Assembly (NCBI GenBank): GCA_965207735.1
Contig: OZ242296.1
Coordinates: forward strand, 1,504,001 to 1,568,000
Reading direction: 5' to 3'
Origin: Candidatus Versatilivorator sp.
Lineage (GTDB): Bacteria > Acidobacteriota > Terriglobia > Versatilivoradales > Versatilivoraceae
DNA: 64,000 bases
Shown here in pieces: positions 12,446 to 56,666 of this stretch (its first letter is position 1; each line of letters starts with the position of its first letter). The notes beneath the pieces were generated by a model. That model worked only from the letters and a program-made list of their open reading frames with translations. It had not been told where the DNA came from and ran no database searches. The position numbers and the translations under genes are program-made.

Positions 12446-12578
12446 CCCCCGGGCGCCAGCCCGGGAATTCCTGCAAGCCGCCAAGGCGGCGACAGCAGGT
12501 AGCCGTGGGCGTAAGCCCATGGGAGTGGGCGTGGCCCATGGAATACGTGACGTTATAGTCGAGCCGCGTAGGCGGCGA
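12446..12578 (+). repeat. REP-like repeat family R2 (left part, interrupted by the island)
   Basis: ~130 bp similar to 39356-39507; GCCGCGTAGGCGGCG hairpin; reverse copy at ~60075-60140. Confidence 0.8.
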
Positions 12579-12929
12579 CTACATCATAAAACTTGTAACT
12601 GTTCATTATAATAGACTTACTGTGGTTAGCCCTGTTGTAATCCCCTCATTATATCCCTCTATTTGAACGGGAATCCACTGGACCTTTCGGGACGTTGGTG
12701 GACGGGTCTTACGATGTTGCAACCCCCGAGACTCTGCGTCCGGGAACGTCGAGCGGGGTGGTAGGCTGCCCTTGGGTTCGGATCGGAGATATCGGGTTGT
12801 GAGCATCCTCCAGGTTTGCCCTTCTCGGCCTCTGGCCATCTGTGGTCTACTGTTCTTCGAGGGCCTCATCAGTGAGGACGCGCAGCCGGGAGCCGACGTT
12901 GACGTGCCGCTGGATGACGAGGCGCTGGA

Positions 12930-13465
12930 GGCCTTCCCGCCAGGGATCACTGTGGTGAGAGCGACCCCGGCAAGGGGGACAAGGGGTGTCCCGACCCCTG
13001 TCCCCCTTTGCCCTCCCCCGTGGCGCACCAGCGGCCAAAATGGGGGGGCGCTCCCTCCACTTCCTCCCCCTCCTGTGCGGCGCGACGACGCGCCGTGCGA
13101 GGGGGTGGACACGCGATGCCGACGCCCCACGGGGCTTTACCCCATAGGATTTGGGCAATCCGTGCCAACCCGCGTCCAATGCGGGTTTCCGGGAACATCC
13201 TGGACCACGACGGCGAGGGCTTCGTCCTCTGAGAGTGGAGCGTTGGGGTTGTTGAAGGGACGCGTCACTTCATGCGCCACCTACGCGCGCCACCTCCCTT
13301 CTGAAAGGGTGACACCCATACGACGCCACGTCCTTGACCCCCGGAGGCGGAAATCGTCGATCATTTCGCGGCTGTTGGAGGCCGGGATTTTCTGCTCCAT
13401 TGAACGATCTTCTCCATGACGACATCGAAGGCGCCGCGACGTGGGAAGGGTTTCCCAATCGTTAC
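12930..13465 (+). repeat. Conserved structured module, copy A
   Basis: Shares GGGATCA.TGTGG.GAGAGCGACC, TGGCGCACCAGCG, GACACGCGA, CCAC.ACGGCGAG, CTCTGAGAG, TTGACCCCC.GAG.CGGAAAT with copies B, C and E. Confidence 0.7.
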
Positions 13466-16893: not shown

Positions 16894-17499
16894 ATCCGCC
16901 AACCTCCTTCTTTTTCAGCTTTTTCAGCTTCTTAAGTCCCCGATGCGTCAACCGGTGCTGTAGCGGGAAGCGAGCGCCAGGGTCGGGCTGCCGGTCACCA
17001 ACTGCAGAATGGAGCCGTGCTGCCGGTGCTGCTCCACGAGCAGGTTAGGCAACGATCCGTGCTGGAATGGATATCCATCTGCAAACCCCAACAAGATGAC
17101 ACAACCCTTTCCCAGGACTCCCTTGGTTATCCTGACACCCCCTGAATCTCTGAGCTGTGCCGGGTACGATGAGTTTTCTCGGTCTCTGGCATACCAGAGC
17201 ACCCCGAAACTGCCACAGCGCCGATTTCCCTCTCAGAAGGCCCAGCTCTTGCCCGTGTGGCGAACCAGAGATTTTGAGGCTAATCCCCGGGAAAAAAGGC
17301 CCCTATTTGCCCTGCGCTGCGTTTTCCATGGGTCCGATGAACGTTAGTACCCGGGATTTTGATGGTAGGTGGGTCAGCAGCAGCCTAGAAAGTATAATAG
17401 GATCTGTGTGAGTGTGGGGTGAATGGAAAGAATATATTGGTGAGAATTTGATGAGTTTATTCGGCGCCCAGCAACGCGCAACGGCAAGATCCACGGGCC

Positions 17500-17700
17500 T
17501 CTTTACTCTTAGAGCTCCCGGTCCTCCCCGACCCTTGGGATGGGTAGCGCACCCACTCGTCCATCAGGATACGCCGATGTTCAAACTGGTCGGAGCGGTC
17601 AAAGCCTGCCTCGACCCGGTTCCGAACCACATGCGCCAGGGCCGACTCCATCACCTCCCGGGGATGGCGGTCTCCTCAGCCGCCCAGTCCCGGAAGCTGG
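17500..17700 (-). pseudogene. 3' fragment of the P4-type integrase
   Basis: SFRDWAAEE...ALAHVVRNRVEA...RSD.FE.RR, frameshifted. Confidence 0.85.
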
Positions 17701-18221
17701 TCCGTCTTCAGCCATTCGGGAATACTGGTCACGGTCCTGTTCCCCGCAGACGCTGGGATGAATCGGAGCAACAAACAGCCGCACTCGATGACCGTGGAAT
17801 GATCGACGATGTCCGCCTCTGGGGGTCAAGGCGGTGTAGACAGACCAACGCGCCACCAAAAAAACCCCGGTGGCGCGTCTAGGTGGCGCGTGCTTTCAAC
17901 AACCACAACGCTTGTCTCTCAGAGGGGGGCGCGCTCGCCGTTGTGGTTAAGGACTTTCTGCGAACGCCGCATAGGACGCGGGATGAGACGGATTGCCCTC
18001 CCCCAATTGTGACAAGGCGAAGCGAGGCTGCGGCTCGCGTGTTCCCCTCCCGTCCGGCGGAACGGCGCGCAGTACGAGAGGGGTGCAGGTGGAGGGAGCG
18101 ACCCCCCGATTTTTAGCGCTGGTGCGCCACCGGCGAGGGTTACGCGGCGCGTACAGTGGCGCGCGATTAACCCTCTCCTCGTGGGGGTCGCTCCCTCCAC
18201 ATTGATCCCTGCGGGAAGGCC
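17701..18221 (-). repeat. Conserved structured module, copy B
   Basis: Reverse-orientation homologue of copies A and C; closest to E. Confidence 0.75.
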
Positions 18222-20689: not shown

Positions 20690-20919
20690 TGTACCGCCCC
20701 CGATTTCTTGGACAGATAACACCCTCCAAACTCAAGCCGCCGGTTTTAGCGCAAGGCGTTGTCTTGCCTGAACCGGAGGCTCGAAGCCGAGACGCTCAAT
20801 CAACCAGTGCTGGTTGTAGAGCGAGCGAAACTCTTCCAGTGCCCCAACCAGTTCCGGTACCGACTGGAAGTGGCGTACCCACAGCAGTTGCTCCTTGACG
20901 GTTCTGAAGAAGCGTTCGG
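20690..20919 (-). pseudogene. IS3/IS481-like transposase 3' fragment with terminal IR
   Basis: ERFFRTVKEQLLWVRHF...YNQHWLIERLG; ends ...GGTACA. Confidence 0.75.
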
Positions 20920-21595
20920 TGACCTCCCCCCCATAAAACGGTCCACTTCGAGAGTGAGTTTTCCGGTACAACAAAGGAGGAGAACTCACCATGAAGCGGA
21001 AGTGATTCACTGAAGAACAGATCATCGGAATCCTGAAGGAAACCGAGGCAGGGGCGAAGAAGCAGGAGATCTGCCGGAGGCACGGGATCTCGGAACACAC
21101 CTTCTATCGATGGCGGTCCAAGTACGGCGGGATGGCGGTGTCAGAGGCGAGGAAGCTGAAGGGGCTCGAGGCTGAGAACCAGAAGCTGAAGCAGCTTTTG
21201 GCCGATGCCCATCTGGATAACGCGGCCCTGAAGGAACTGCTGTCAAAAAACTGGTAAGGCCCGCAGCACGCCGCCGAGCCGTGGACCACGTGATCGGGCT
21301 CGGGATGTTGAGTCAGCGGCGGGCCTGCCGACTCTCGGGAATCCACCGATCGGTGGCCCGTCATCAGTCTCAATGCGGAAGCGACAGCGAACTTCGAGAA
21401 CGCCTGAAGCAGTTGGCGGCCGAGTATCCGCGTTATGGATACGAGCTGCTGCACGGGATGTTGAAAGCTGAGGGGCTCGTGGTGAACGAGAAGAAGACGT
21501 ATCGCATCTACCGCGAAGAGAAGCTCCAGGTCAGGCGGAAACGACGCAAACGCCTATTGGCACGGGACCGGGTTCGAATGCCGATGCCAGAGGGG
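20920..21595 (+). mobile_element. Truncated IS3-family element (orfA with nonsense codon, partial orfB)
   Basis: TG start; MKRK*FTEEQIIGIL...TFYRWRSKYGG; AAAAAACTGGTAA frameshift site; RYGY HTH region of orfB. Confidence 0.85.
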
Positions 21596-21766
21596 ACGGA
21601 CCATCCCCGAGAGGTGATTGAGGCGGACTTGGCGCATGTGGTGCGCAACCGTGTCGAGGCGGCCTATGCCCGCTCCGACCTGTTCGAGCGCCGGCGCATG
21701 TTGATGGACGACTGGGCGCGTTACCTGGCCGAGGGGGCGGGGGAGGATCTGGAGCCCTTGGAGTAA
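21596..21766 (+). pseudogene. 3' fragment of the P4-type integrase
   Basis: DHPREVIEADLAHVVRNRVEAAYARSDLFERRR...EDLEPLE. Confidence 0.85.
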
Positions 21767-23782: not shown

Positions 23783-23928
23783 CAAGCGTCGTAGTGGTAC
23801 GTCATCCGGCCGCGGAAGTGGTTACCGGAGTGGATCCCGCGAACGGCCGATATCGAGTTCCGTACGTCACCCGCCCGATGTCGACCAGCCAGCCAATGCT
23901 GATCGAAGCAACTGCTTTGGAGGGAAGT

Positions 23929-26253
23929 ATGAGAGTAGTGTCTTTACGAAACAGAGTTCTTCCTTCTCCCACCCTGGCGGTTTGGAACCTCGCCGCAGCC
24001 CTTCTGCTGGCGGCGGGCAGTCTACCCCTGCAGGCGCAGGGATCTATTGCCTATTACTTCCCTCATCTTGCCGTGGGAGAGAATTGGCAGACCACGATAA
24101 CCTATATCAACTACTCCTCGCAGAAAGTAACCTGCCAAACCGATTTCATTTCGGATCATGGAAGTCCGTTGCTGGTCTCGTTTCCGGGACGGGGAATGGT
24201 GAGCAGCCGGACTGACGTTCTGCCGCCTGGCGGGGCGGTTCACCAGGAGACCAACGTCGAGCTGAGCGCTCCTCTTACGCCTGGCTGGGCGAAGGCCGTC
24301 TGCTCCGCGCCAGTGAAGGCCAGCCTCCTGTTTCGTCAGTTCAAGGGAGGGGTACCCGTGGCGGAAGCCGGAATCAATGCGGCGGCAACTCCGACAACCC
24401 GGTTCGTCACCTTGGCCGAGCAGCAAGAAGGCAAGGACGGGACCGGAGTGGCCTATGCCAACCCCTCAGACACAGCGGCCCTTGTCACCTTTATCGCCAG
24501 GGACGCGGCGGGGCAGACGCTGGCTAGCGTCGACAAGACCCTATTGCCCGGAGAGCATGGTGCGCAAAACATGACGAACCTGTTCGATCTCGGCAGCTTT
24601 ACCGGCTCGCTCGAAGTCACCTCTAAGGTACCCATCGTCAGTCTGTCGCTCAACTTCGAAGCCGCTCCCGTATTCTCCTCTCTGCCTCCGGGAGCACCAG
24701 ATGCTTCCGGGCAGGGATTGACTACGTATTACTTCCCTCATCTTGCCGTGGGAGCGAGTTGGCAAACCACGATCACCTACATCAACTTCTCCTCGAAGGA
24801 AGTGACCTGCCGAACCGATTTCATTTCGGATCATGGAAGTCCGTTGCTGGTCTCGTTTCCGGGAGGGGGAATGGTGAGCAGCCGGACCGACATTCTGCCG
24901 CCCGGTGGGTCCGTTCACCAGGAGACCAACATCGACCTAAGCGCTCCTCTTGCGGCCGGCTGGGCGCAAGCCACATGCTCCGCGCCGGTGAAGGCCAGCC
25001 TGCTGTTTCGCCAGCGCAACAGCTCAGGGGTGCCTGTGGCGGAAGCCGGAATCAATGCAGCTCCGGTCCCAGCCACCCGCTTCGTCACCTTTGCCGAGCA
25101 GCAAGAAGGCAAGCGCGGGACCGGAGTTGCCTATGGCAACCCTTCCACCACAGCAGCCCAGGTCACCCTTACGGCCAGGGACGCAGGGGGGCAGACGCTG
25201 GCCAGCGTCGATAAGAACCTGTTGCCCGGAGAGCATGGGGCGCAGAATATGGCGAATCTGTTCGGTCTCGGCAGCTTTACCGGCTCGCTCGAAGTCACCT
25301 CTAAGGTCCCAATCGTCAGCCTGTCGCTCAATTTCGAAGCCGCTCCCGTATTCTCCTCTCTGCCTCCAGGTGAGGTGCCGGTGGTGCCGCTCCAGGATGC
25401 GGGCAAGATGTACTGGACCGCCCCTGCGACGACCAAGCACCGGCCCAAGATCCAGCGGGCGAACCTCGACGGCACCCAGGTCGAAGACCTCGTCACTCTG
25501 ATAACGGGAATCGACGTTCCTCTCGGCTTGGCGCTGGATCTGGGTGCGGGCAAGATGTACTGGACCAATTACGACAAGATCCAGCGGGCGAACCTCGACG
25601 GAAGCGAAGTGGAAGATCTCATCACCACGGGATTGGAACATCCCTTTGACATAGCGCTGGACCCGGGCGGGGGCAAGATGTACTGGACGGACCGGGGGTC
25701 TATAAGTGGTGGGCGCAAGATCCAGCGGGCCAACCTCGACGGCACCCAGGTTGAGGACCTCGTCACCTGGACTGGATTCAACCCGATAGTTCACTCACCA
25801 ACCGGACTGGCGCTGGACCTGGACCGCGGCAAGATGTACTGGCTGGACGATGGGTTTGGGGGGGGGCGGCATAATATCCAGCGGGCTAATCTCGACGGCA
25901 CCCAGGTGGAAGACCTCACCAGGGGAGAGGGATTGATCACTCCAACTTTTTTGGCGCTGGACCCGGGCGGGGGCAAGATGTACTGGACGGACCGGGGGAC
26001 GACCAAGTTCCGGGCCAAGATTCAGCGGGCCAATCTGGATGGCACCCAGGTGGAAGACCTCCTCACCCTGCAACTGGGATTATCCACGGGGCCAGTAGGT
26101 CTGGCGCTGGACCTTGATGCGGGCAAGATGTACTGGACGCACCGGGATCCGGACAAGATCCAGCGGGCGAACCTGGACGGAAGCGAAGTGGAAGACCTCA
26201 TCACCACGGGATTGGGACATCCCGTTGACTTAGCGCTGGACCTGGGCAACTGA
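23929..26253 (+). CDS. Secreted protein: two tandem ~215-aa repeats plus a six-bladed YWTD (LDL-receptor class B) propeller
   Basis: YYFPHLAVG..WQTT repeat twice (DNA-level duplication); six GKMYW(T/L)..KIQRANLDG units. Confidence 0.85.
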   Translation: MRVVSLRNRVLPSPTLAVWNLAAALLLAAGSLPLQAQGSIAYYFPHLAVGENWQTTITYINYSSQKVTCQTDFISDHGSPLLVSFPGRGMVSSRTDVLPPGGAVHQETNVELSAPLTPGWAKAVCSAPVKASLLFRQFKGGVPVAEAGINAAATPTTRFVTLAEQQEGKDGTGVAYANPSDTAALVTFIARDAAGQTLASVDKTLLPGEHGAQNMTNLFDLGSFTGSLEVTSKVPIVSLSLNFEAAPVFSSLPPGAPDASGQGLTTYYFPHLAVGASWQTTITYINFSSKEVTCRTDFISDHGSPLLVSFPGGGMVSSRTDILPPGGSVHQETNIDLSAPLAAGWAQATCSAPVKASLLFRQRNSSGVPVAEAGINAAPVPATRFVTFAEQQEGKRGTGVAYGNPSTTAAQVTLTARDAGGQTLASVDKNLLPGEHGAQNMANLFGLGSFTGSLEVTSKVPIVSLSLNFEAAPVFSSLPPGEVPVVPLQDAGKMYWTAPATTKHRPKIQRANLDGTQVEDLVTLITGIDVPLGLALDLGAGKMYWTNYDKIQRANLDGSEVEDLITTGLEHPFDIALDPGGGKMYWTDRGSISGGRKIQRANLDGTQVEDLVTWTGFNPIVHSPTGLALDLDRGKMYWLDDGFGGGRHNIQRANLDGTQVEDLTRGEGLITPTFLALDPGGGKMYWTDRGTTKFRAKIQRANLDGTQVEDLLTLQLGLSTGPVGLALDLDAGKMYWTHRDPDKIQRANLDGSEVEDLITTGLGHPVDLALDLGN

Positions 26254-26997: not shown

Positions 26998-27870
26998 TCA
27001 CCACGATAAGTTCTGACGCCGACGCAAGTCGGTGATGAGGTCGGAGTCTTCGATGGACACGCGCATATGTTCGTGCCCCGGCTGTCTACGGTGACAGTCG
27101 GCGCACATCGCCTTCAGGTTCGACGAAGCGTTGTTCGTCTTGACGCCGTTGATGTGGTGCACGTGCAGCAGCCCTGCGTGTTCCCTCAGGTTGACGCGGC
27201 AGCTTTCGCAGATGAAGCCATGAGCCTCCTTGTATCGCTTGGAAACGACGTCCCAGTTCGGCGCATACGCCCCATCGAACACGCCCGTCCGCCGCATTGG
27301 CATCTGGTCGAAGTGCGGGCGGTAGATGTCGAAGAACTCGCTCCACTCGAACCCCTGGAATACCTGTTTCCGATTCCTCGTGTAGTTCCGGTAGTCCAGC
27401 ATCCGCAGACAGTTCTTGCACACCCTCAACCTGGTTTTGCCCTCGACTCGCCCTCCGTACTCGTCCTGTCCGGTCACGTAAAAGTCGCCGCTGACGTCGT
27501 TCGTCGCGACGTAGCGCTCGTAGCGCCCGCGACGTCGCATTTCCTGCAACGTATCGCAGCTGGCGACATGCACCTTTCTGCCCTTTGTCCCGTCCTCAAG
27601 CACATCGTGGATGTTCTTCCACTGATCTTGGATGTACAGGACGACCTGTCGTCCTCGGTAGCTCAGAAGGCCAGACTCTGGATGACTCTCGATACCGGAC
27701 AAGTCTTCGAACTCGATGCCATCTCTCAGTTCGATGTCGATCGGATCGAGTGGGTCGATTCCACGGCGGACGTCGATATCTAGATCCACGGGCACCGCCG
27801 CGGCGCCCATGCGGCGCACGGCCTCCTCCAGGTGCGACAAATCAACGTTTAGACGCATGGCGCGAATCAC
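26998..27870 (-). CDS. zorE: Zorya type II HNH nuclease effector
   Basis: CESC...LHVHHING..TNN...NL..MCADCH; coupled downstream of zorB. Confidence 0.75.
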   Translation of the reverse strand: MIRAMRLNVDLSHLEEAVRRMGAAAVPVDLDIDVRRGIDPLDPIDIELRDGIEFEDLSGIESHPESGLLSYRGRQVVLYIQDQWKNIHDVLEDGTKGRKVHVASCDTLQEMRRRGRYERYVATNDVSGDFYVTGQDEYGGRVEGKTRLRVCKNCLRMLDYRNYTRNRKQVFQGFEWSEFFDIYRPHFDQMPMRRTGVFDGAYAPNWDVVSKRYKEAHGFICESCRVNLREHAGLLHVHHINGVKTNNASSNLKAMCADCHRRQPGHEHMRVSIEDSDLITDLRRRQNLSW

Positions 27871-28577
27871 CGCTCCAGAATCGTGCGAATCTGCGTTTCC
27901 GCGTTCGTCACGACGCGGAACAACACACGCCGGGACGCCTTTGGCTCTTCGCGGCCGGAGTAGTCCACAACAAGACGTGACGACGAGAAGCCGACCGCAG
28001 CGACCTTGCGCCTGACCCAGCTCCGATCACCGGGGGCCGTGGTAAGCGTGTAGATGTGCTCCAGAACCGATCGCGTGCGTCCTTGGGACAACCGCATGTT
28101 GTTGAAATACGCCTCGTCCTCGGTGGCCAACAACCAGTCGCTGGAGGTATGCCCTTCCACGCGCACCTCGTCGATGACCTCCTCGAACTCTCGTAGCACC
28201 CGCAGATACCTGGGGAAGAAATCGTCGAGGATAGCGGCGAACCGCGGCCGCAGGTTAATGGCGCCGGCTTCGAACAACACTTCTGGCGATCGGAACTCGA
28301 ATGTCAGGTTTTCTGCGTCTATCGCAGCGTCCCATTTCACCAGGTCGTTCTCGAACTCGCCGCGCAACGCCTCGTCGATGGCAACCTGCCCTTCCCGATA
28401 CGCCACCGCTACTTCGCGGATGCGATCCCGATCGAGGAACGCACTGCGCATCAGCGCGACGGAGATGAAGAGAAAAACCATCATCAGCCCCGCCATCAGG
28501 TCCGAGATGGTCAACCAGTGCTCGCCGTCGCCGCCGGACCGGCGCAATCCGAACAGATGGTCCGCCCCCGCTCTCAT
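27867..28577 (-). CDS. zorB: Zorya MotB/OmpA-like protein
   Basis: WLTISDLMAGLMMVFLFI TM with conserved Asp; VEGHTSSDW, NMRLSQGR, SRRV. Confidence 0.85.
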   Translation of the reverse strand: MRAGADHLFGLRRSGGDGEHWLTISDLMAGLMMVFLFISVALMRSAFLDRDRIREVAVAYREGQVAIDEALRGEFENDLVKWDAAIDAENLTFEFRSPEVLFEAGAINLRPRFAAILDDFFPRYLRVLREFEEVIDEVRVEGHTSSDWLLATEDEAYFNNMRLSQGRTRSVLEHIYTLTTAPGDRSWVRRKVAAVGFSSSRLVVDYSGREEPKASRRVLFRVVTNAETQIRTILER

Positions 28578-30022
28578 TGCCTGGTTCCCGTCCTGACAAT
28601 CTGCTTCATCTCCTGCACGAGCCTCCCATAGTCGTCGACGAACCTGCCAGCGATCTGGCCCAGCGCAACGCCCATCTGTTGCATCACGCGACTCATCTCC
28701 CTGGACAGCGCCTCGTCGAGTGCTTCGATTTGCTTGTTCAGGCCTTCACCGGTTCGCGAAACGGCCTGCCGCGTCTGATCGAGCGTCATCTGGATCAGGG
28801 TATCGGTCGCCTGACTCTGCGCGCTCGCCGCCTCCTTCAGTGCGGTTTCCATCCGACTCTGCATTTGCGTGATGGCGTTGGCCACGCGATCCTGTACCGC
28901 CTGGACATCGCCCTGCATCTTCTCCCCCGCCTGCGCCAGATGCTCCAGCATGTCCCGAGACTTCGCAAGCTGCGCTCTGGAGTCGTTCTGCAGCTGGGTG
29001 ACGTGCTCGCTGGCCAAGCGGACGGCTGCGGCGATGTCCTGCGTCATCGCATGCACATGCGCCTGGGCCTGCGGAATGGCTTCGACGGCGCGGTCACGCA
29101 GTTCCGCGAAGGCGGCGAGATGACGCTCGAGTTCCTCGATCCCGCGGCTGGCCGTGTTCACGACGTCGGTGAGCTTCTCCATCGAGTCTGGGATGCTCGC
29201 GCTACGCTCGGCGATCCGTGCCACGGATGCCTCAATCGTCGTGATCTGCCGCACCGACTGGTCGTACAACACGTGGAGCTGCTCAAGCTGCTCCCGATAC
29301 GCCTCCTGCCATTCCACGAGCTTCTGCACCGACTCGTCGAGCTTCCTGAAATTGTCGCCGAACTGCTCCGTCAAGTTACGGTTGAAGTCGACGATGACCG
29401 CTCTCAGCGCCTCGATCACCTGCTCCGTTGCGGACTTCGACAGCATCTCCGCGAACGTATGCAGACGTTCCCACAGCTTGGCCTCGAATCGCTCACGGAC
29501 TGCGGCGTCCTCCCGCCGCCGATCCCACAGATCCGCCCTCAACAGTTTCAGTTGCCCTGCCAGACTCGACTCCTCCCCGCCCGCGATGGCGTCCCGGGTC
29601 GCCTTGAGAAGGTCCTTCTGTTCGTTCAGTACGGCGACGACATCTTCCGGGCCGACTTCTGCCGCAACGGTCCCGGCGCCCTTTACCGTCAGAAAGGGCT
29701 CCATGCCTCTGAAGACGAGGCTCGCCGATATCCCGGCGATACTGCTGACAAACGCGGTTTTCAAACCCTGTAACAACCCTTCGATACTCTCGTCTAACCG
29801 TGCCGGATCGAAGTCTAGCAATCCGACCACGATCCCGACAAAGGTGCCCAGAATGCCCAGTGACGCAAGCAACGCCGGCGCGTGCGCTGTCAGCGTCGGA
29901 TACTTCCCTTTCCAAAGCGAGTATCCGGAGAAGACGAGCAGTACCAACACCAGCCATATGAAGATCTCTGTGACGACGCTCGGCGCAAGCCCGCGCAGGA
30001 ACGATTCAAGCACCGTACTCAT
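28574..30022 (-). CDS. zorA: Zorya MotA-like protein with long helical tail
   Basis: LGILGTFVGIVVGL, GLKTAFVSS, FNRNLTEQFGDNF..L..SV..LVEWQE.Y. Confidence 0.85.
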   Translation of the reverse strand: MSTVLESFLRGLAPSVVTEIFIWLVLVLLVFSGYSLWKGKYPTLTAHAPALLASLGILGTFVGIVVGLLDFDPARLDESIEGLLQGLKTAFVSSIAGISASLVFRGMEPFLTVKGAGTVAAEVGPEDVVAVLNEQKDLLKATRDAIAGGEESSLAGQLKLLRADLWDRRREDAAVRERFEAKLWERLHTFAEMLSKSATEQVIEALRAVIVDFNRNLTEQFGDNFRKLDESVQKLVEWQEAYREQLEQLHVLYDQSVRQITTIEASVARIAERSASIPDSMEKLTDVVNTASRGIEELERHLAAFAELRDRAVEAIPQAQAHVHAMTQDIAAAVRLASEHVTQLQNDSRAQLAKSRDMLEHLAQAGEKMQGDVQAVQDRVANAITQMQSRMETALKEAASAQSQATDTLIQMTLDQTRQAVSRTGEGLNKQIEALDEALSREMSRVMQQMGVALGQIAGRFVDDYGRLVQEMKQIVRTGTRQ

Positions 30023-30557
30023 CGCCGTGTAGCCCCTGATCGAAGTGATGCCGCAAAACGGTGAGTGCCATTCTATCGAACACGAACGGACATTGCGAGC
30101 CACGCGAACGTCCGCGCGTGCTCACCCGCATCAAGACGTTCCGCTCCCAGCGGCACCTCAACGTCGGCTCCTGGCTGCGCGACCTCATTAATGAGGCCAG
30201 TTGAAAGGCCAATAGATCCTCACCTTTGAACTGGACCCATTATCAGAGGGAAGACTGTCGAGTCGGCAGGAAACCGACTCGAAGAAAAGCAGACTGCAGA
30301 TGGCCCAGGTAGAGAGAGGGAAGCCTGGAGGATGCACGCAACCCGATACCTCCGATCGGGAGCACGGGCAGCTTGCCACTCCGCTCGACGGTTCCGGAAG
30401 AAGAGTCTCCGGAGTCGAACGATCGCAAGACTTGTCCGACAACGTCCCCGATGGTCCAGAGGATTCCTTTTCAAAAAGAGGGATACAATGAGGGAACTGC
30501 AACCGGCTTATCCATATTAAGCCGTTTATAATTAGTGATATACAATTCCTACATTGA

Positions 30558-31629
30558 ACGTCGCCGTGAGCTCGTCGGCAGCCTTGCCCTGGTCCCCCTG
30601 GCAGAGGCTAGGGAGAAAGCGCTGTCCAACCGCAAGCTCGCCCGTGAGGGTGGAGATCCCCTTGCCGAGAAACGCCGCACCGAGGGCATCCCCACCTTCG
30701 CCGAAGCTGCCTCGCGTGTGCTGGAACAGAAGCGGGACGGCTGGCGCGGCCGGCGTCACCACCGCGAGTGGATGGTGAGCCTGAGGCGGTACGCCTTCCC
30801 GCGCATCGGCAAGATGCCGGTCTCCGAGGTCACCAGCGCCAATCTGCTTGAGATCCTCACCCCCATCTGGCACCGGAAGGCCTCCAGCGCCCGGCGGGTG
30901 CGCCAGCGCCTGCGTACGGTCCTGGAATGGGCCGTAGCCATGGAGTACAGAATCGACAACCCCTGCGACAGGATCGGCCCGATCCTGGGTCCCCAGCATG
31001 ACGTTACCGAGCACATGCGGGCTTTGCCCCATGGGGAGGTGGCTGCGGCCATCCGGACGGTGCAGGCAGCGACGGCGCCCGAGGTGGCCAAGCTGGCTTT
31101 CGAGTACCTGGTGCTGACCGCGGCCAGGTGGAGTGAGGTGCGCTGGGCCGAGTGGGAGGAGATCGATCGAGACGCTGGTGTATGGACCGTCCCGGCCAGC
31201 CGAATGAAGGCGAACCGCCAACACCGGGTGCCGCTTTGTGGCCGCGCCCTGGAGATTCTCGAGGCGGCAGGGACCCTGGGCGAGGGAGCCGGTCCTCTGG
31301 TATTCACCCGTGGGCAAGGGAAGCCGCTCAGTGACAAGGAGCTGCGCTGCCTGGTCCGCGAGCAGGGGATTGCAGCGGTGCCGCACGGGTTCAGGTCCAG
31401 CTTCCGGGACTGGGCGGCCGAAGAGACCGACCATTCCCGGGAGGTGATCGAGGCGGCCCTGGCGCATGTGGTCCGCAACCGGGTCGAGGCGGCCTATGCC
31501 CGCTCCGACCTGTTCGAGCGCCGGCGTGTCCTGATGGACGACTGGGCGCGTTACCTGGCCAGACTTGATCCCCTCCGGCACCAGAGGTCGCAACTGCGCC
31601 AACATGTCCGGCTCCACTTCCGACAATGA
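30558..31629 (+). pseudogene. 5'-truncated second copy of the P4-type integrase
   Basis: Near-identical to 37917-39149 from RRREL onward; most of the arm-binding domain is missing. Confidence 0.85.
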
Positions 31630-32410: not shown

Positions 32411-32830
32411 TTACCTGCACTCGAGAAACTCCCGTATCCGCTCCCCTACATCAGTACCCGTCTTTACCTCGCACTCCCACAGAATCATTACTTTCCAGCC
32501 TAATTCATAGAGTTTTGCCACCTGTTCCGCGTCGCGGGTCACATTGCTTTTCAGCTTAGTTGCCCAGTAATTCAGGTTGGACCGGGGGGTTCGGGAATTC
32601 TTGCAGGTGGTTGAGGGGTGTTGATGCCAAAAACAGCCATGAACGAAGATAACCTTTTGCAGGCGCGGGAAGACAAGGTCGGGTTTGCCCGGCAAGTCCA
32701 TCCGGTGCAGCCGATAGCGGTAGCCCATCGAATGAACAAGGCGGCGCACCATCATCTCCGGCATCATTCCCTTGGACTTGATGTTGGACATGATTTCGCT
32801 ACGCCTCTTGGAACTTACTGTGTCGGCCAT
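32411..32830 (-). CDS. vsr: Very-short-patch repair endonuclease
   Basis: D...RS.IMS, LPGKPD, FVHGCFWH, ILWEC. Confidence 0.92.
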   Translation of the reverse strand: MADTVSSKRRSEIMSNIKSKGMMPEMMVRRLVHSMGYRYRLHRMDLPGKPDLVFPRLQKVIFVHGCFWHQHPSTTCKNSRTPRSNLNYWATKLKSNVTRDAEQVAKLYELGWKVMILWECEVKTGTDVGERIREFLECR

Positions 32831-33027
32831 CGCCTAAGCTCGGATAGGGTTTCGTCGATAAACCAATCAAGGAAGCGAAAACGTGGTTTTGAGAATCATC
32901 TCCTCAAGTTGGTCTGGTATGATTTGTCTCTTTTGGCTGTTATCTGTTAGAGACTTTACAGTTTGTGCAAATAGTGTCAGCAGGGTGCTGAGCATTGCGT
33001 CTCACTTCTACGAAAGCAAAAAACTCA

Positions 33028-34188
33028 ATGGAAAATCAATCTTCTGAAAGCACAATTGAGGGACGGCAGATCACGAGGATATCCCTGAACGAACTCTTGC
33101 TAGATCGTAACAACCCTAGATTTGGCCTACGGGGTAACGAAAAAAGCCAACAAGAAATTCTAGATCATATTGTAGAGAAATTTGGAGTAAACGACGTTCT
33201 GAGTTCACTGGCGGTGAATGGATATTTTGAGGCTGAGCCCATTGTCTGTCGCCGGATCCCCAAAACAAAAAGGGCTGTTGTTGTTGAAGGCAACCGACGT
33301 CTAGCAGCTTGCCTAATTATTCTCGGAGACAAGAGAGCGGCAAGCCAAGAGAAACGGTCGGCGGAATTTAGCGCTCTCTGGAATGAGAATAACCGCCCAA
33401 GGATCAACCCGGTACCGGCAATATTGTTCGAGGAGAAGGAACAGCAGAAAGCAATTCTTTCCTATCTGGGTGTGCGCCACATCGCGTCCTCACAGCCATG
33501 GGATTCGTATGCGAAGGCCGCTTGGGTTGCTCAGGTAGTCGAAGAAAGTGGTCTGGACATCCAGAGTGTTTCTCAGATGATCGGTGACCAGCACCAAACG
33601 GTGAACCGGCTTTTAGAGGGTTACTATTTGGTTCAACAATTGGTTCGGCAGGGCAGGTTTCATCCACAAAACAGTATTCGACGAGGCCGTGGAAGTGTTA
33701 CGGAATACCCGTTCTCATGGGTTTACACCATACTTGGCTATACGACAGTTCGTAAGTTTCTCGAGCTCTCTGATGGGGGTGCCCCACAAAATCCGGTCGC
33801 CGAAGACAAGTTGGACGGAGGCGGGTTGCTTTTTCGAGTTATGTTCGGCGACAAGTCGCGTGGCAGAAGTGCTGCTTTAGAAGATTCCCGTGAACTTGGC
33901 GACCTAGCAACTGCCCTTGCCAGTGATGAAAAGATTCGTCTTTTGGAACAGGGGAAGACGCTTGCTGAAATTGAAACTCTTACTAAGCCAGTCGAAAGGC
34001 GCCTGTCTGACGGACTTGACCTTGTGCGCGTCACGTTGAGGGATTTAGTTGCCAGTTTGTCTGAACAAGATATTCAGCAGAGCACTGCAACTAATTTCGT
34101 GAAGATTTCTAGCGGTAATCGCAAGATGGCCGTGGAACTCGATAGAAAGCTCAAGGAGATTGCATTTGGTGGGGATGACGAAGACTGA
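33028..34188 (+). CDS. ParB/Srx-like N-terminal domain protein
   Basis: LLLDRNNPRF and VVEGNRRLAA motifs; W..YAKA helix region. Confidence 0.75.
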   Translation: MENQSSESTIEGRQITRISLNELLLDRNNPRFGLRGNEKSQQEILDHIVEKFGVNDVLSSLAVNGYFEAEPIVCRRIPKTKRAVVVEGNRRLAACLIILGDKRAASQEKRSAEFSALWNENNRPRINPVPAILFEEKEQQKAILSYLGVRHIASSQPWDSYAKAAWVAQVVEESGLDIQSVSQMIGDQHQTVNRLLEGYYLVQQLVRQGRFHPQNSIRRGRGSVTEYPFSWVYTILGYTTVRKFLELSDGGAPQNPVAEDKLDGGGLLFRVMFGDKSRGRSAALEDSRELGDLATALASDEKIRLLEQGKTLAEIETLTKPVERRLSDGLDLVRVTLRDLVASLSEQDIQQSTATNFVKISSGNRKMAVELDRKLKEIAFGGDDED

Positions 34189-35155
34189 CCCATATAGCCT
34201 TCGCCACCAAGCCCAGCGCTCGGCCAACCATGCCGATCAAGCCGAATTCTCTGCGCTAAAGAACGGTACAACGGTCATTGATACTGGAATTTATCATGGG
34301 CGTGTTGCAGGCGCGATGGACGATTTTGAAGCCCCAGATCTGGCTGTCCGCGAGTTATGGCATAACGAAGATCTAAAATTCGACAGCGCAGTAGGGAAGA
34401 TATACGAGGAGATCGAGCGTCGCAGCAAGACCATGGAAACAACTTATCCGTTTTCAATTGAAGAAGGATCATTAATTCACACACCAAGCAACAACTCAGT
34501 TTACGAATTTCTTTTGGCTATCTGTAATGCAGAGACTCTCACGGCGGGTGAACATGTATGGCTTCCCCGCTTGTTTGAGCGTCTTTCTGCTCGTTTGGTC
34601 GCAGCTTGTTTCGGCTCTGACACGCAATTTGTGCATACTGGAGCACCCAGAGATCCAGAAATCGGCACCTCCTTTAAGACAGCAATGCTGACTGTTGCTG
34701 AACGAACGTCGGAGTGGAACTGGGGCCCAGACGAGGGTCTGCCGGATGAGCCTGTCAACGGCGATGGTGGCTGCGATTTCGTTGTTTGGCCCGTTCCCCC
34801 AGACGGACGAAAGATAGGCCAGCTTTTCGTGCTCGGTCAGTGTGCTTGCGGTAACGATTGGCAAACGAAATTCAAGGATCTAACAATCAGGAGTCTATCT
34901 AAGTGGTTCAATCCACTATCGATTGTCGAACCAGTTCGATGTTTCTCAACCCCGTTCCATGTTACCGACGCAATGCTAAGAGAGGCGAGCCGTGAAGGGG
35001 GAATTGTCTTTGATCGCGCACGACTGGTTAGACTTAGCCGGCAAGTGGCAGAAGATAGGATTGAATCCGAAATTCAAAGCAAAATGAATCGTCTTATTGA
35101 ATTAGTGATCGGACAGCGCTACCAAATATCAGGAAGCGACTCTGCAACGGCCTGA
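34175..35155 (+). CDS. Putative PD-(D/E)xK-like endonuclease
   Basis: FE.LS...GDGGCDFVVW...LGQCACG..W..K; overlaps the ParB-like gene. Confidence 0.55.
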   Translation: MTKTDPYSLRHQAQRSANHADQAEFSALKNGTTVIDTGIYHGRVAGAMDDFEAPDLAVRELWHNEDLKFDSAVGKIYEEIERRSKTMETTYPFSIEEGSLIHTPSNNSVYEFLLAICNAETLTAGEHVWLPRLFERLSARLVAACFGSDTQFVHTGAPRDPEIGTSFKTAMLTVAERTSEWNWGPDEGLPDEPVNGDGGCDFVVWPVPPDGRKIGQLFVLGQCACGNDWQTKFKDLTIRSLSKWFNPLSIVEPVRCFSTPFHVTDAMLREASREGGIVFDRARLVRLSRQVAEDRIESEIQSKMNRLIELVIGQRYQISGSDSATA

Positions 35156-36072
35156 AATAATTGGGGAGGCACTGCATTTCCTATAGCTTCGTATTTCTGG
35201 CGCATCGTTCCGGTCTCAGGAAAGACTATATCGCTATCGAAGCCTTGCAGACACGCAGCCTCACGAAAAGAGAAACGTCTTCGAGGAGCATCTGACGACC
35301 AAACCCATTTATCAGTGTGGATGCGTAATAACTGGGGACTCAGTGGATGTAAAGGCATGTGTCGAGGATGGCTAACGATCGTCTTGCTCGGCTCTGACCA
35401 GTCGCGGCGCCTATTACGTGACATATAGTACCAATGGAATCCATCATCGAAGAATTCACCTTCTGGCCAAATTGTCATGCCAGCCAATGCTTCTGCAATT
35501 GTCTTAAATCTATTCTCCCCTTCTCGAGTGTGGGTCGGCTTTGGAAAGGAATAGCGCATGTCGATATCGCTCCTAATTCCAACGACAAATATTCTGACTC
35601 GTTCTTGGGCTACTCCGTAGCTAACCGCATTCAATAGATCATGTGACACCCTATATCCGGCCATCCGGAAACGAGTGATTTGATTGTGCAGGAGGTGTCT
35701 GAAATCACTACGCCGCATGCCCGGCACATTCTCGACTATGAATGCTTTCGGGCGTACCTGCCTGAGCGCACGATCAAATTCACGATATAAGTAGTTAATT
35801 CTTCTATTTGATACTCGGGCGCCCCCTTGGCTGAAGCCTTGGCAAGGGTAACATCCAACTAAAAGATCTGCCGTAGGGAATGACGGGATTTCGCCAACGT
35901 CTTTGCACTGAAAATCTGTTTCCGGCAAATTGGCTTCGTAGAGTTCTTTGGCAAACTGTGAAATATCGTTGGCGAATACAACTTCGAAGCCGGCACTCAG
36001 TAAGCCCGTATCAGAGCCGCCGCACCCGCTAAACAAGGAGACGGCTTTTGCTTTTGTCTTAGTTTTCAGCAA
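35119..36072 (-). CDS. C5-cytosine DNA methyltransferase
   Basis: FSGCGG, PCQGFS, ENV, QxRxR, GNAVPP. Confidence 0.92.
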   Translation of the reverse strand: MLKTKTKAKAVSLFSGCGGSDTGLLSAGFEVVFANDISQFAKELYEANLPETDFQCKDVGEIPSFPTADLLVGCYPCQGFSQGGARVSNRRINYLYREFDRALRQVRPKAFIVENVPGMRRSDFRHLLHNQITRFRMAGYRVSHDLLNAVSYGVAQERVRIFVVGIRSDIDMRYSFPKPTHTREGENRFKTIAEALAGMTIWPEGEFFDDGFHWYYMSRNRRRDWSEPSKTIVSHPRHMPLHPLSPQLLRIHTDKWVWSSDAPRRRFSFREAACLQGFDSDIVFPETGTMRQKYEAIGNAVPPQLFQAVAESLPDIW

Positions 36073-36957
36073 CTCAGCAACTCTTATCTTGTTGTATTCT
36101 CTTTGAGAATCACCTTCTGATGGTCCTATCTTGAAGGTCCACCCCTCCTCTCCTCTGATAGTATCTCAATCACTGCAACAAATCATGGGGATAAAGAGCC
36201 GGGCTCGGGAAGAGCCGTTCTCTCATCGACCCAGGAAAATTCTCCGAGTTCCCCCTTTTCCACAGCCTCGACGGCGGGGCAACGGCGGGGATAATTCACC
36301 AAATTCCTCCCTCTGGCGTCGGACCTAAATTCGGAGGAGGGTCAATGCGCAAAGCGAATGCGCGCACATGGGAAGGACGCGGGATGCGCAGATCGGAGCA
36401 TCACCGACCCGACAGTGATCCATTCGACTGCAAGGCTCGGGGCGTGGTCTGCGGCCCCGTGGTTCCAATTCGATCCGGGCCAACCGTAACTGTTCGGTCA
36501 AGCCGTGGCGCGCGTCGTCCTGCGCCGGGCCTATGGCTTCGCGCTCAATGGCGACCGAGCACCTGACGAAGTGCCACCCTTTCACCTCCGTGGGATGGAG
36601 ACACAGAGCCGAGAAGCGACCCGTGGTTGTCGGAACGATACGGTCGGAGCGCGTGGTAGGTAAGGACTTCGAGGCTGACGATCCTCTGCCGTTGTCCTGT
36701 CCGCGGGAGGTCTTGCCGCCGCTACGGCTGGCTCAAGCCCTACAGTAACCCAACGGGAATTGATCGCTACGGAGAGGATGCCGGTTCGACCACTCCACCA
36801 CAGCTTGACCGAACAGTTACGGGCCAACCGTCCCTAAACGGCCACGAAGAGCCAGGGGAATCCGTTTTTTTCTGGAGGGCATAATGGTGGGCAGGACATC
36901 GTCTGGAAATCCATAAGTCCTTTGTATAAAATGTGTTACATCAATTCCCGATAACGT

Positions 36958-37095
36958 CCGAAGGGATCACTGTGGTGAGAGCGACCCTCCGAGGGGAGGT
37001 TAACCGTGAACTGCGGGGTGAAACGGCTAACCCTCCCCGATGGCGCACCAGCGTCCAAAAGGGTGGGGTCGCTCTCACCACAGTGATCCCTTCGG
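36958..37095. repeat. 138-bp element with perfect 30-bp inverted arms (module copy D)
   Basis: CCGAAGGGATCACTGTGGTGAGAGCGACCC at 36958-36987 and its exact reverse complement at 37066-37095. Confidence 0.85.
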
Positions 37096-37244
37096 GAAGG
37101 GCGAAATGAAGACCTGGAGCCAAGTCATTCTCGTCAACCTGGCCTTGACGGCCGTGGGCCTTCGGGTGTGGCTCGATCCCTGGCCCGCTTTGGGAGAAGT
37201 TCCCCTGCTTGACTTGGTTCACGCCACCGATCCCTTGGGCCTAA

Positions 37245-37312
37245 CTACACTCAGACCTCCAGATCCTCTCCCGGCCCTTGGTCCAGGTAACGCGCCCAGT
37301 CCCGGAAGCTGG
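37245..37312 (-). pseudogene. Internally deleted integrase 3' fragment
   Basis: SFRDW fused to ARYL via GACTGGGCG microhomology. Confidence 0.7.
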
Positions 37313-37832
37313 TCCGTCTGCAACCATTCGGGAATAGTAATCACAGTCCAGTTCCCCGCAGACGCGTGGGAATCCGAGCAAGAAACAGGCTCACCGGATG
37401 ATGGTGGAATGATCGACGATTTCCGTCTCTGGGGGTCAAGGCGGTGTCGTCAGATGGGCCGACACCTTTCCGAAGGGGGGGTGTCGGACTAACATGTCGG
37501 AGATCCTGCTACGCACAACGTCTTTCTCTCAGAGGGCGCGCGCTCGCCGTTGTGGTTCGGGACTTTCCCGAAACGCCTCATCAGACGCGGAACAACACGG
37601 ATTTCCCGCGTCCGCTGCGAAAAGGCGAAGCGAGGCTGCGCCTCGCGTGTCCCCCCCTCGCCCGGCGAAACGGCGCGCCGCACGAGAGGGGTGCTGGTGG
37701 AGAGAGCGCCCCCCCCTTTTTTCCCGCTGGTGCGCCACGGGCGCGGGAAAAGGTGTCGGCAAAGGTGTCGGCCCTTTGCCCCCCTTTTGGGGAGGTCGCT
37801 CTCTCAACAGTGATCCCTGAGGGAGGGCCGAA
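37313..37832 (-). repeat. Conserved structured module, copy E
   Basis: Homologous to B over its full length, including the integrase junction. Confidence 0.75.
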
Positions 37833-37916
37833 ATGAAGACCTGGAGCCAAGTCATTCTCATCAACCTGGCCTTGACGGCCGGGGGTGTGCGGGTAGGCTC
37901 GATCCCTTGGGCCTCT

Positions 37917-39149
37917 TTACTCCAAGGGCTCCAGATCCTCCCCCGACCCCTGGGCCAGGTAACGCGCCCAATCGTCCATCAGGAGACGCCGGCGCTCGAA
38001 CAGGTCGGAGCGGGCATAGGCCGCCTCGACCCGATTCCGAACCACATGCGCAAGGGCGGCCCCGATCACCTCCCGGGGGTGGTCGGTCTCCTCGGCCGCC
38101 CAGTCCCGGAAGCTGGACCTGAACCCGTGCGGCACGGCTGCAATCCCCTGCTCGCGGACCAGCCATCGCAGCTCCTTGTCACTGAGCGGCTTCCCCTGCC
38201 CACGGGTGAACACCAGAGGACCGGCTCCTTTGCCCAGGGTCCGTGCCGCCTCGAGAATCTCCAGGACACGTCCACACAGCGGCACCCGGTGCTTCCGGTT
38301 GGCCTTCATCCGACTGGCCGGGACGGTCCATACACCAGCGTCCCGATCGATCTCCTCCCACTCGGCCCAGCGCACCTCACTCCACCTGGCTGCCGTAAGC
38401 ACCAGGAACTCGAAGGCCAGCTTGGCCACCTCCTCTGCCGTCGATGCCTGCACCGTCCGGATGGCCGCGGCCACCTCCCGATGCGGCAAGGCCCGCATGT
38501 GCTCGGTAACGTCATGTTGGGGACCCAGGACCGGGCCGATCCTGTCGCAGGGGTTGTCGATCCTGTACTCCATGGCTACGGCCCATTCCAGGACCGCACG
38601 CAGGCGCTGGCGCACCCGCCGGGCGCTGGAGGCCTTCCGGTGCCAGATAGGGGTGAGGATCTCAAGCAGGTCGGCGCTGGTGACCTCGGAGACCGGCATC
38701 TTGCCGATGCGCGGGAAGGCGAACCGCCTCAGGCTGGACATCCACTCGCGGTGGTGACGCCGGCCTCGCCATCCGTCCCGCTTCTGTTCCAGCACACGCG
38801 AGGCGGCTTCGGCGAAGGTGGGGATACCCTCGGTGCGTCGCTTCTCGGCAAGAGGATCTCCGCCCTCACGGGCCAGCTTGCGGTTGGCCAGGGCCTTCTC
38901 CCTGGCCTCGGCCAGGGAAACCAGGGCAAGGCTGCCGAGACCGAGCTCCCGGCGACGGCCACGGACGACGAGGCGTTGAATCCAACTGCGGGTTCCGCTG
39001 GGCTGGACGAAGAGGTACAATCCATTTCCATCGGCGTATCTTCCGGGCGGAGCGGAGCGCAGGAAGGCGGCCGAGAGGGCGTTGCTGGGGTGGCAACCGG
39101 TGGGTTTGGTCTTGGGTCGGAACGGAGCGAAGTCCGTTACAGTATCCAT
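37917..39149 (-). CDS. P4-family tyrosine integrase, apparently intact
   Basis: Arm domain YADGNGLYL.V..SG.RSW; R (TAAR), K (RMK), HGFR, LAH, Y (AAY). Confidence 0.92.
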   Translation of the reverse strand: MDTVTDFAPFRPKTKPTGCHPSNALSAAFLRSAPPGRYADGNGLYLFVQPSGTRSWIQRLVVRGRRRELGLGSLALVSLAEAREKALANRKLAREGGDPLAEKRRTEGIPTFAEAASRVLEQKRDGWRGRRHHREWMSSLRRFAFPRIGKMPVSEVTSADLLEILTPIWHRKASSARRVRQRLRAVLEWAVAMEYRIDNPCDRIGPVLGPQHDVTEHMRALPHREVAAAIRTVQASTAEEVAKLAFEFLVLTAARWSEVRWAEWEEIDRDAGVWTVPASRMKANRKHRVPLCGRVLEILEAARTLGKGAGPLVFTRGQGKPLSDKELRWLVREQGIAAVPHGFRSSFRDWAAEETDHPREVIGAALAHVVRNRVEAAYARSDLFERRRLLMDDWARYLAQGSGEDLEPLE

Positions 39150-39300
39150 CCCCCCATTATATGGGGGATGGCAGTGGATTGCAAGGGATGTTGGTGGCAA
39201 GACAAGCCACGGCAGGACTTATATAAGACACTCATAAATAAGACAGTTATAGACTCTACTGGACGGCACTAGACATCACTGGAATTTGAATGGCCGTTGC

Positions 39301-39536
39301 GGCGGCGGCAGCAATCCTCCGCTGCTTGACATCAAACGGCTCACCGTCCACTATTCCCCGGGCGCCAGCCCGGGGGCTCCAGCAAGCCGCGAAGCGGCGA
39401 CAGCAGGTAGCCGTGGGCGTAAGCCCATGGGGGTGGGCGTGGCCCATGGGGGTGGGCGTGGCCCATGGAAAACGTGACGCTAGAGTCGAGCCGCGTAGGC
39501 GGCGACAGCAATCATCCCGCTGCTCGATATAAAACG
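39301..39536 (+). repeat. R2 REP-like repeat: tail of the interrupted copy plus one full copy
   Basis: GGCGGCGGCAGCAATCCTCCGCTGC at 39301 matches GGCGGCGACAGCAATCATCCCGCTGC at ~39498. Confidence 0.75.
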
Positions 39537-55592: not shown

Positions 55593-55636
55593 GACCGAAT
55601 ACCCCTTCCTCCAGTGACGCGGTCATCAGAACAAGC

Positions 55637-56557: not shown

Positions 56558-56666
56558 GTTCACTGTTCAGTTAATATAGCAGTTTTCTTAAATATATGCT
56601 ATAAGAGTGATATTTACTGTACAGCAAAAATCCAGAATGTGGGTGCTTGACGCGGAGGTTGAGGAT

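What the first reader, a model, noticed from the sequence alone, without database searches (positions are those of the whole stretch)
37245..38126. Module end is joined to the integrase at the catalytic HGFR|SSFRDW box in two copies: possible integration into its own integrase gene
Seen: CGCCCAGTCCCGGAAGCTGG is followed by ACCTGAACCC (HGFR) in the intact integrase (38116), but by TCCGTCT.CA.CCATTCGGGAATA in both B (17700) and E (37312), which are otherwise diverged. The order intact int - small ORF - module - int 3' end - small ORF - module start is what a ~0.8 kb unit carrying a replacement int 3' end would give on inserting into int, as phages restore tRNA ends. Inference: integrase genes act as the attB that builds this array. 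Descent from one ancestral duplication is the simpler alternative.
Basis: partly seen in the sequence, partly recalled or inferred. Interest (0 to 1): 0.75.

Follow-up and report, generated by a model that had tools for sequence, protein, structure and literature searches.

The report
Integrases that invade sister integrase genes
The shared junction is real but is likely an inherited scar rather than a site used by this integrase; it belongs to a genus-wide set of mobile islands in which two related integrase lineages sit at fixed spots inside the integrase genes of their sister islands, and one of them likely also moves this 0.8-kb piece into or out of the gene.

Summary
The window integrase (family A, P4-like) inserts into REP-like repeats: 15 of 15 promoter-side ends show this, none in an integrase gene. 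The HGFR|SSFRDW junction is a minority form (4 of 37 module junctions). The commonest (20 of 37) lies 33 bp away at codons ETDHP.

That site is the attachment core of a sister family, E. Seven of 13 E promoter-side ends and 12 of 15 intact far ends lie in integrase genes. A second family, F, splits integrase genes at FEFLV (4 of 4 elements, both ends). A tree suggests E and F arose separately. E also sits in a type I-E CRISPR repeat, and the module end is a CRISPR spacer-plus-repeat remnant.

The 0.8-kb unit did enter or leave an integrase gene. A 99%-identical sister copy lacks it, and the crossover maps to 38080-38116, probably 38080-38093 at the E core. Its direction and catalyst (E versus homologous recombination) are open.

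Nine literature searches found no account of this target. The scan noted one similar case on other DNA (e1-2141424, unchecked).

The parts
37917..39149 (-). Intact family-A tyrosine integrase, 410 aa (arm-binding, central and catalytic domains); mosaic, with its last ~57 codons from another copy than the rest
   Evidence: Pfam PF13356, PF22022, PF00589; R255, K282, H341, R344, H368, Y378 present; step in divergence at 38080
39150..39313 (.). Promoter-side attachment arm of the family-A island, ending in its core (39296-39313), next to Acido-Lenti-1 REP-like repeats
   Evidence: 15 of 15 family-A ends stop at this core; Rfam RF01687 at 39385-39430
12571..12930 (.). Far attachment site (core 12571-12579) and arm of the same 26.7-kb family-A island
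   Evidence: 16 far arms end in the same repeat; sequence
38075..38089 (.). ETDHP site inside the integrase gene: attachment core of sister family E (one mismatch here, at 38079); the mapped crossover 38080-38093 overlaps it
   Evidence: 13 of 13 E promoter-side ends and 15 intact far ends stop at this core
38097..38117 (.).
37067..37312 (.). Displaced piece at E: module end, truncated ORF, integrase 3' end with a 132-bp internal deletion, then the 20-mer
   Evidence: 234 of 235 identical to the 3' flank of the sister copy at G000:4232710; undeleted form in a contig of run X1
37313..37405 (+). X at E: 32-nt spacer-like stretch (37317-37348), decayed type I-E-like CRISPR repeat (37349-37376), then the flank of module M
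   Evidence: 13 repeat copies in the genome; arrays with this repeat and 32-nt spacers in G004 and G005
37407..37829 (+). Module M, ~420 bp, non-coding as far as tested, hairpin-rich, with short direct repeats at both ends; function not established
   Evidence: 46 near-complete copies in the genome; in 13 of 13 congeners; no Rfam, phage or plasmid match
37830..38083 (.). Truncated ORF and replacement integrase 3' end: right part of the 804-bp unit
17495..18221 (+). Copy B: frameshifted integrase 3' end (17495-17700), X (17701-17792; repeat 17737-17765), module M (17797-18221)
21586..21766 (+). Third integrase 3' piece, joined to an IS3-type transposase gene at the same ETDHP core
36826..37095 (.). 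Far arm of a family-D element joined to an inverted module end, fused head to head with a second module end

Best explanation
The 0.8-kb unit is a passive segment, and the HGFR|SSFRDW junction is likely an inherited scar; the recurring insertion sites inside these integrase genes belong to two sister integrase families (E at codons ETDHP, F at FEFLV), and family E likely catalysed the exchange that moved the unit into or out of this gene. Shown by sequence: family A, B and C islands insert into dispersed host repeats and have spread to about 20 copies, which makes their integrase gene a multi-copy target. E and F islands sit inside that gene, split it, and bring no replacement piece. E is also found at the 3' end of a type I-E CRISPR repeat, which matches its core at 10 of 12 bases. 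Inferred: excision between the ends of E insertions at different sites left hybrid empty sites, among them 'integrase 3' end | spacer | repeat | module M'. One variant kept 33 more bases of integrase (the B/E form) and was copied along with host islands. A segment bounded by two E cores (804 bp) can then be gained or lost by crossover at the core, which swaps the last 57 codons, including the catalytic His and Tyr.
For: E: 13 of 13 promoter-side ends stop at one core; the partner is integrase DNA in 7, X in 2, a CRISPR array piece in 1 and other DNA in 3. Of 20 far arms, 15 reach the core and 12 of these join an integrase 3' end. F: 4 of 4 elements in 4 genomes have both ends in integrase genes at aa 246-250. 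Each target type maps to one clade, and E and F are separated by well-supported branches (quick tree). E's own gene reads D-A-P and lacks the core. Junction census: 20 ETDHP, 4 B/E, 3 Sel1-gene start, 2 E arm, 8 other, of 37. Window versus sister: the strongest divergence step of 153 pairs, at 38080. A contig with 354 of 355 identity to the unit has a different base at the 38094 equivalent, which narrows the crossover to 14 of 323 homologous bases, over the E core. That allele combination is shared by B and G000:2874360 and absent from 26 near-full copies, which suggests one origin of the B/E form.
Against: No biochemical or read-level evidence of excision or circles was obtained; only contigs were laid. 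The unit has no E arms, so a one-step E reaction would be non-canonical and a multi-step route must be assumed. The direction is unresolved: the sister's 3' end has 3 private amino-acid changes against 1 here, which leans weakly to loss from an older tandem. The four B/E copies are not one clade on X+M trees (at least 2 changes forced), though no junction type clusters there. The G006 B/E copy lacks the shared allele. The first 9 nt of the 'spacer' also resemble integrase DNA with a 2-nt gap, although a shuffle test showed no overall likeness (p=0.34). Copies may be inherited rather than independent insertions.
Confidence: 0.65

Rival explanations
1. E and F do target integrase genes, but the 0.8-kb unit was gained or lost here by ordinary homologous recombination or gene conversion between the ~300-bp direct repeats, and the crossover fell near the E core by chance.
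For: The repeats are 82-88% identical. 38080-38116 is free of differences between the window and the sister copy. Mosaic steps occur elsewhere in these genes, for example at 38253. Microhomology deletions are present (132 bp). A contig of X17 skips 671 bp between the repeats at another position. Junction types are scrambled on module trees.
Against: The inferred crossover is confined to 14 of 323 homologous bases and covers the core. Many unrelated left partners join X at the same base, each ending in a partial core match, which homologous recombination does not explain.
Confidence: 0.24
2. A further, unseen integrase (or E at a secondary site) uses the 9-bp word at HGFR|SSFRDW itself, so the B/E junction arose repeatedly.
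For: The start of a Sel1-repeat gene ends in the same 9-bp word and joins X at the same base in 3 loci of 3 genomes. B/E copies are not monophyletic on the X+M tree.
Against: No integrase arm is joined at this position among 30 promoter-side ends and 27 far arms in this genome. The shared allele suggests one origin. Other genomes were not surveyed exhaustively.
Confidence: 0.07
3. One reading: the unit circularises and the family-A integrase inserts it into its own gene at HGFR|SSFRDW, restoring the 3' end as phages restore tRNA ends.
For: The geometry of a replaced and a displaced 3' end is real. Without the X1 contig the crossover interval reaches 38116. One arm of uncertain family is joined to a family-A integrase at aa 64 in this window.
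Against: Family A's core is a REP-like repeat at 15 of 15 and 16 of 16 ends. The unit carries no A arms. The junction is 4 of 37. The X1 allele places the crossover left of 38094.
Confidence: 0.04

Closest known systems
Helper-embedded PICIs (PMC10111431; passages read)
   Same: [quoted passage not shown]
   Different: Targets there are prophage late genes. Here they are integrase genes of sister islands, and no PICI replication genes were found in the two elements scanned.
IME_oriT and other nested (matryoshka) elements of Firmicutes (PMC7563843, abstract; PMC9585547, passages)
   Same: Site-specific insertion into a conserved part of another integrative element; nesting and tandem accretion. 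Family D here targets the end of module M in the same spirit.
   Different: The target there is oriT; mobilisation was shown by experiment; here helper use is untested.
P4-like / IntSXT tyrosine integrases of genomic islands (PMC8138268, passages) and integrase-only defence islands (PMC10121019, passages)
   Same: DUF4102-type arm-binding domain, attachment site next to the promoter, defence cargo (Zorya II, restriction-modification), few other mobility genes.
   Different: Targets are dispersed repeats, sister integrase genes and a CRISPR repeat, not tRNA or housekeeping genes.
Archaeal suicidal integrases (PMC8371274, passages); Myxococcus phage Mx8 (recalled, not found)
   Same: A recombination site inside an integrase gene, split genes and chimeric integrases.
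   Different: There the site is the element's own attP; here it is attB in another element's gene, and E's own gene lacks the site.
Phage AP1.1 integration into CRISPR repeats (10.1101/2020.10.09.333658, abstract and section titles)
   Same: An integrase uses a CRISPR repeat as attB, and aberrant excision carries spacers away.
   Different: Type II-A phage with an anti-CRISPR; here type I-E-like, and the repeat looks like a secondary site that mimics a coding-sequence core.

Membership tests
P4-like/IntSXT island integrases | Arm-binding (DUF4102-type), central and catalytic domains with the R-K-H-R-H-Y residues | tested here: met
P4-like/IntSXT island integrases | Matching attachment cores at both island ends with AT-rich arms | tested here: met
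   12571-12579 and 39296-39313
P4-like/IntSXT island integrases | tRNA or housekeeping gene as target | tested here: not met
   No tRNA in the window; cores are repeats, integrase genes or module M
Elements restoring their target with a replacement sequence | attP carries a copy of the displaced gene end | tested here: inconclusive
   Not so for E and F, whose arms abut the split gene; the 0.8-kb unit has this geometry but no arms
Suicidal / self-targeting integrases | The element's own site lies inside its own integrase gene | tested here: not met
   A core is outside the gene; E's gene lacks the E core; F's gene differs from its core by one base, so self-targeting by F is not excluded
Elements embedded in genes of other mobile elements (HE-PICI, IME_oriT kind) | One integrase clade per fixed site in a gene of another element, target disrupted | tested here: met
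Elements embedded in genes of other mobile elements (HE-PICI, IME_oriT kind) | Own replication or relaxase module | tested here: not met
   27 ORFs of one E and one F element gave transposases, nucleases, ankyrin, DprA and HAD only; no D5-type helicase in the genome
Elements embedded in genes of other mobile elements (HE-PICI, IME_oriT kind) | Excision and helper-dependent transfer | not testable with these tools
   Only contigs were available
CRISPR-repeat-integrating elements | Attachment junction at a repeat, followed by a unit-length spacer and the next repeat | tested here: met
   L084 (two spacer-repeat units) and the X type; 1 plus 2 of 13 E ends
CRISPR-repeat-integrating elements | Anti-CRISPR or effect on immunity | not tested
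   No Cas1 or Cas6e match in this genome

The most novel reading that the evidence does not exclude
A guild of competing islands in one sponge-symbiont genus in which integrases have evolved twice to knock out the integrase genes of their relatives. Family E avoids its own gene by a changed codon triplet, doubles as a CRISPR-repeat integrase, and by integration-excision cycles shuffles the catalytic tails of its victims and builds module arrays: a selected integrase-on-integrase parasitism with reversible control of the victim's mobility.
Probability: 0.4. Interest if true: 0.82.

Novelty: new variant of a known kind. Interest (0 to 1): 0.66.

Why it matters
Integrases normally pick tRNA or housekeeping genes. 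Here the integrase gene of a successful multi-copy island has itself become the landing site, in two separate lineages, and the insertion splits the gene upstream of catalytic residues. That gives a testable case of conflict among mobile elements and of how target specificity switches, with six closely related integrases of different known cores side by side. It also explains why these genomes are littered with integrase 3' fragments that break at the same codon, which annotation would call random decay.

Tried and rejected
tRNA target: none in the window.

Module M as a known RNA, phage or plasmid element: no match.

X as decayed integrase DNA: shuffle p=0.34; X spacer against fetched arrays: best 19 of 32, no match.

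Monophyly of junction types on X, M and X+M trees: no type clusters better than shuffled labels, so the test is uninformative (31 of 37 rows used; 6 lacking the short X-M form were dropped).

Homogenised 3' ends between families at four-fold sites: A-B 0.26 and 0.22 after codon 354 against 0.27-0.48 for codons 251-353, but within-A values are as noisy, so this is not used.

Direction by private nucleotide changes: 4 against 3, uninformative; the amino-acid column was out of frame, was discarded and was redone.

A distinct family targeting codon 64 (RRRE): seen in 1 of 15 loci fetched, not established.

Integrase targeting outside the genus: 0 of 69 loci at 84% identity or less to E have an integrase piece ending at aa 358 just upstream; many sit in dispersed repeats.

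The one-clade test for E plus F did not finish. One search timed out. A closer second look at contigs around the junction was not obtained. The TIGER paper (Mageeney 2020) was not held and may list such targets; no supplements were read.

Full report
Observation. The joint lies one base into Ser345 of a 410-aa P4-like tyrosine integrase at 39149-37917. Contigs of two other runs span the E junction, so it is real.

Context. The window is G000:C1:1504001-1568000. The genome holds 77 tblastn pieces of this integrase, 26 of them near full length, and 68 hits to the ~420-bp module M, 46 near complete. M occurs in 13 of 13 congeneric genomes. Named records with the closest relatives of the E integrase are titled Candidatus Versatilivorator or Versatilivoraceae, and two of the four closest simply Terriglobia (Acidobacteriota); that the genus is a sponge symbiont is recalled and fits the sponge metagenome runs. 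The finding lies at the end of a 26.7-kb island (12571-39313) carrying Zorya type II and a cytosine methylase with Vsr.

Which site does each integrase use? Aligning 30 promoter-side ends and 27 far arms sorts the integrases into families with their own cores. Family A, which includes the window's gene, ends in a REP-like repeat next to Acido-Lenti-1 motifs (15 promoter-side and 16 far ends; for the motif). Families B (5 ends) and C (2) use other repeats. D (4) ends in the right end of module M. E (2) ends inside an integrase gene at codons ETDHP, and F (1) inside one at FEFLV. One of the 30 ends was broken. No end of any family was found at HGFR|SSFRDW.

E and F are real insertions into integrase genes. 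In this genome an 11-kb E island separates aa 1-358 from aa 353-410 of an integrase, and a 13.6-kb F island separates aa 1-250 from aa 246-409, each with a duplicated core. E occurs in 7 of 14 genomes (12 copies; plus a partial copy in L020). All 13 promoter-side ends stop at the same core, one with a 1-nt deletion. The partner is a long integrase 5' part in 5, a short integrase piece in 2, the module end X in 2, a CRISPR array piece in 1 and other DNA in 3. Of 20 far arms fetched, 5 are broken before the core, 12 join an integrase 3' end and 3 join other DNA. For comparison, 24 of 60 genomic copies of the 10-base core motif lie in integrase or X sequence. F occurs in 4 of 14 genomes, and all 4 have both ends in integrase genes of families A, C or E; in one the two halves come from different families. 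A quick tree of 59 proteins puts each target type in one clade and E and F on separate well-supported branches, which suggests two origins; the formal test did not finish. E's own gene reads D-A-P and lacks the core. Relatives outside the genus do not show this target (0 of 69 loci), and many sit in dispersed repeats.

What is the module end X? It holds a decayed copy of a 29-bp type I-E-like repeat (type name recalled). There are 13 copies in this genome, no Cas1 or Cas6e match, and true arrays in G004 and G005, with 32-nt spacing in 118 of 122 intervals in overlapping loci. Exactly 32 nt separate the E core from the repeat in X, and the core matches the repeat's last 12 bases at 10 positions (chance about 8e-5). 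Locus L084 shows an E end followed by core, 32 nt, repeat, 32 nt, repeat, with a different spacer, and its far end joins an integrase 3' end. I infer that 'integrase 3' end | X' is a hybrid empty site left by E. The caveat is that the first 9 nt of the spacer also resemble integrase DNA.

Among 37 X-bearing stretches (all 11 of this genome plus those in loci fetched from relatives, not an exhaustive set; 3 CRISPR-array rows dropped), 20 join integrase at ETDHP, 4 at HGFR|SSFRDW, 3 join the start of a Sel1-repeat gene, 2 join an E arm and 8 join other DNA. The B/E form is the ETDHP form with 33 more integrase bases. B, G000:2874360 and a contig of run X1 share an allele combination absent from 26 near-full copies, which favours one origin. 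The G006 copy lacks it, and trees of X and M do not group any junction type, so repeated origin is not excluded.

Did the 0.8-kb unit move? Yes, at least once. The window gene differs from the copy at G000:4232710 at 12 of 1070 bases from 39149 to 38080 and at 35 of 286 from 38079 to 37794. The displaced piece 37067-37301 matches that copy's own 3' flank at 234 of 235. This is the strongest step among 153 pairs. The window is therefore the sister plus 804 bp, with a later 132-bp deletion in the displaced end. The crossover lies in 38080-38116. The X1 contig (354 of 355 identical to the unit, undeleted) differs at the 38094 equivalent, which narrows it to 38080-38093, over the E core and away from 38116. 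Gain and loss give the same sequences; private amino-acid changes (3 in the sister, 1 here, 0-2 in the 14 other full-length or near-full copies, 1-11 in fragments) lean weakly to loss from an older tandem. E catalysis is inferred from position only, and homologous recombination remains a live rival.

Comparison with what is known. The system works like helper-embedded PICIs and oriT-targeting IMEs, which insert into conserved parts of other mobile elements, and the enzymes are ordinary IntSXT/P4-type integrases. It is not a suicidal integrase system and E and F carry no replacement sequence. Nine searches (listings) and passage searches in eight papers gave no account of sister integrase genes as a regular target. 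The TIGER paper was not held and subscription papers are mostly missing, so novelty is provisional. An earlier unchecked note of this scan reports one element inserted in another's integrase gene in a different genome.

Verdict. New variant of a known kind, interest 0.66.

Noticed in passing
G000:636620, 1014103, 1124405, 2498748; window 36826-36960: Family-D integrases end in the right end of module M, so a third family targets a conserved part of sister islands.
   Followed up: partly
window 37407-37829 and other copies: Module M has short direct repeats (10 bp, period 12-13) at both ends whose sequence tends to change together (4.2 shared 7-mers against 2.3 in shuffled pairings; 20 of 46 copies parsed; copies are related). 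Candidate protein-binding or replication signal.
   Followed up: partly
G000:1088686, 3238647, 4406907, 4512170, 5152688: Five family-A copies share one internal deletion (window 38263-38956) yet keep their ends and sit at different loci: likely non-autonomous elements moved in trans. The same joint is in run X1.
   Followed up: no
G000:1110574-1110919 and 3860805-3862250: Pairs of the CRISPR-like repeat flank 316 bp and about 1.4 kb of non-array DNA in a genome with no Cas1 or Cas6e match; the short X form may have arisen by deletion between such repeats.
   Followed up: no
window 30140-31575: A far arm of uncertain family is joined to a family-A integrase at codon 64; single case among 15 loci.
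   Followed up: partly
window 20690-21766: An IS3-type transposase gene is cut and joined to an integrase 3' end at the E core; an E far arm also joins IS3-like DNA in L193.
   Followed up: partly
window 26998-30103: Complete Zorya type II (ZorA2, ZorB2, ZorE2) inside the island.
   Followed up: no
window 32411-36072: Vsr, a PD-Lambda-5_A-like protein, an unnamed ORF and a cytosine methylase (best DruM2): a likely restriction-modification-like cluster.
   Followed up: no
window 36480-36820: MITE-like element with terminal inverted repeats, 11 copies in the genome, often inside island arms.
   Followed up: no
L217:11860-13700: MobC-like ORF (motif recalled) and a relaxase (PF03432) next to a family-D integrase: the only such relaxase match in the genome, a possible mobilisable member of the guild.
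   Followed up: partly
L117-L129 upstream of the integrase: E's relatives in Longimicrobiales records end in a dispersed hairpin repeat that resembles the stretch upstream of the mobC-like gene in L217; possibly a transfer-origin target (seen by eye).
   Followed up: no
window 23779-26253 and 54453-56563: Eukaryote-like genes: an LDL-receptor class B repeat protein inside the island, and ERG4/ERG24-type and DUF1295 genes outside it.
   Followed up: no
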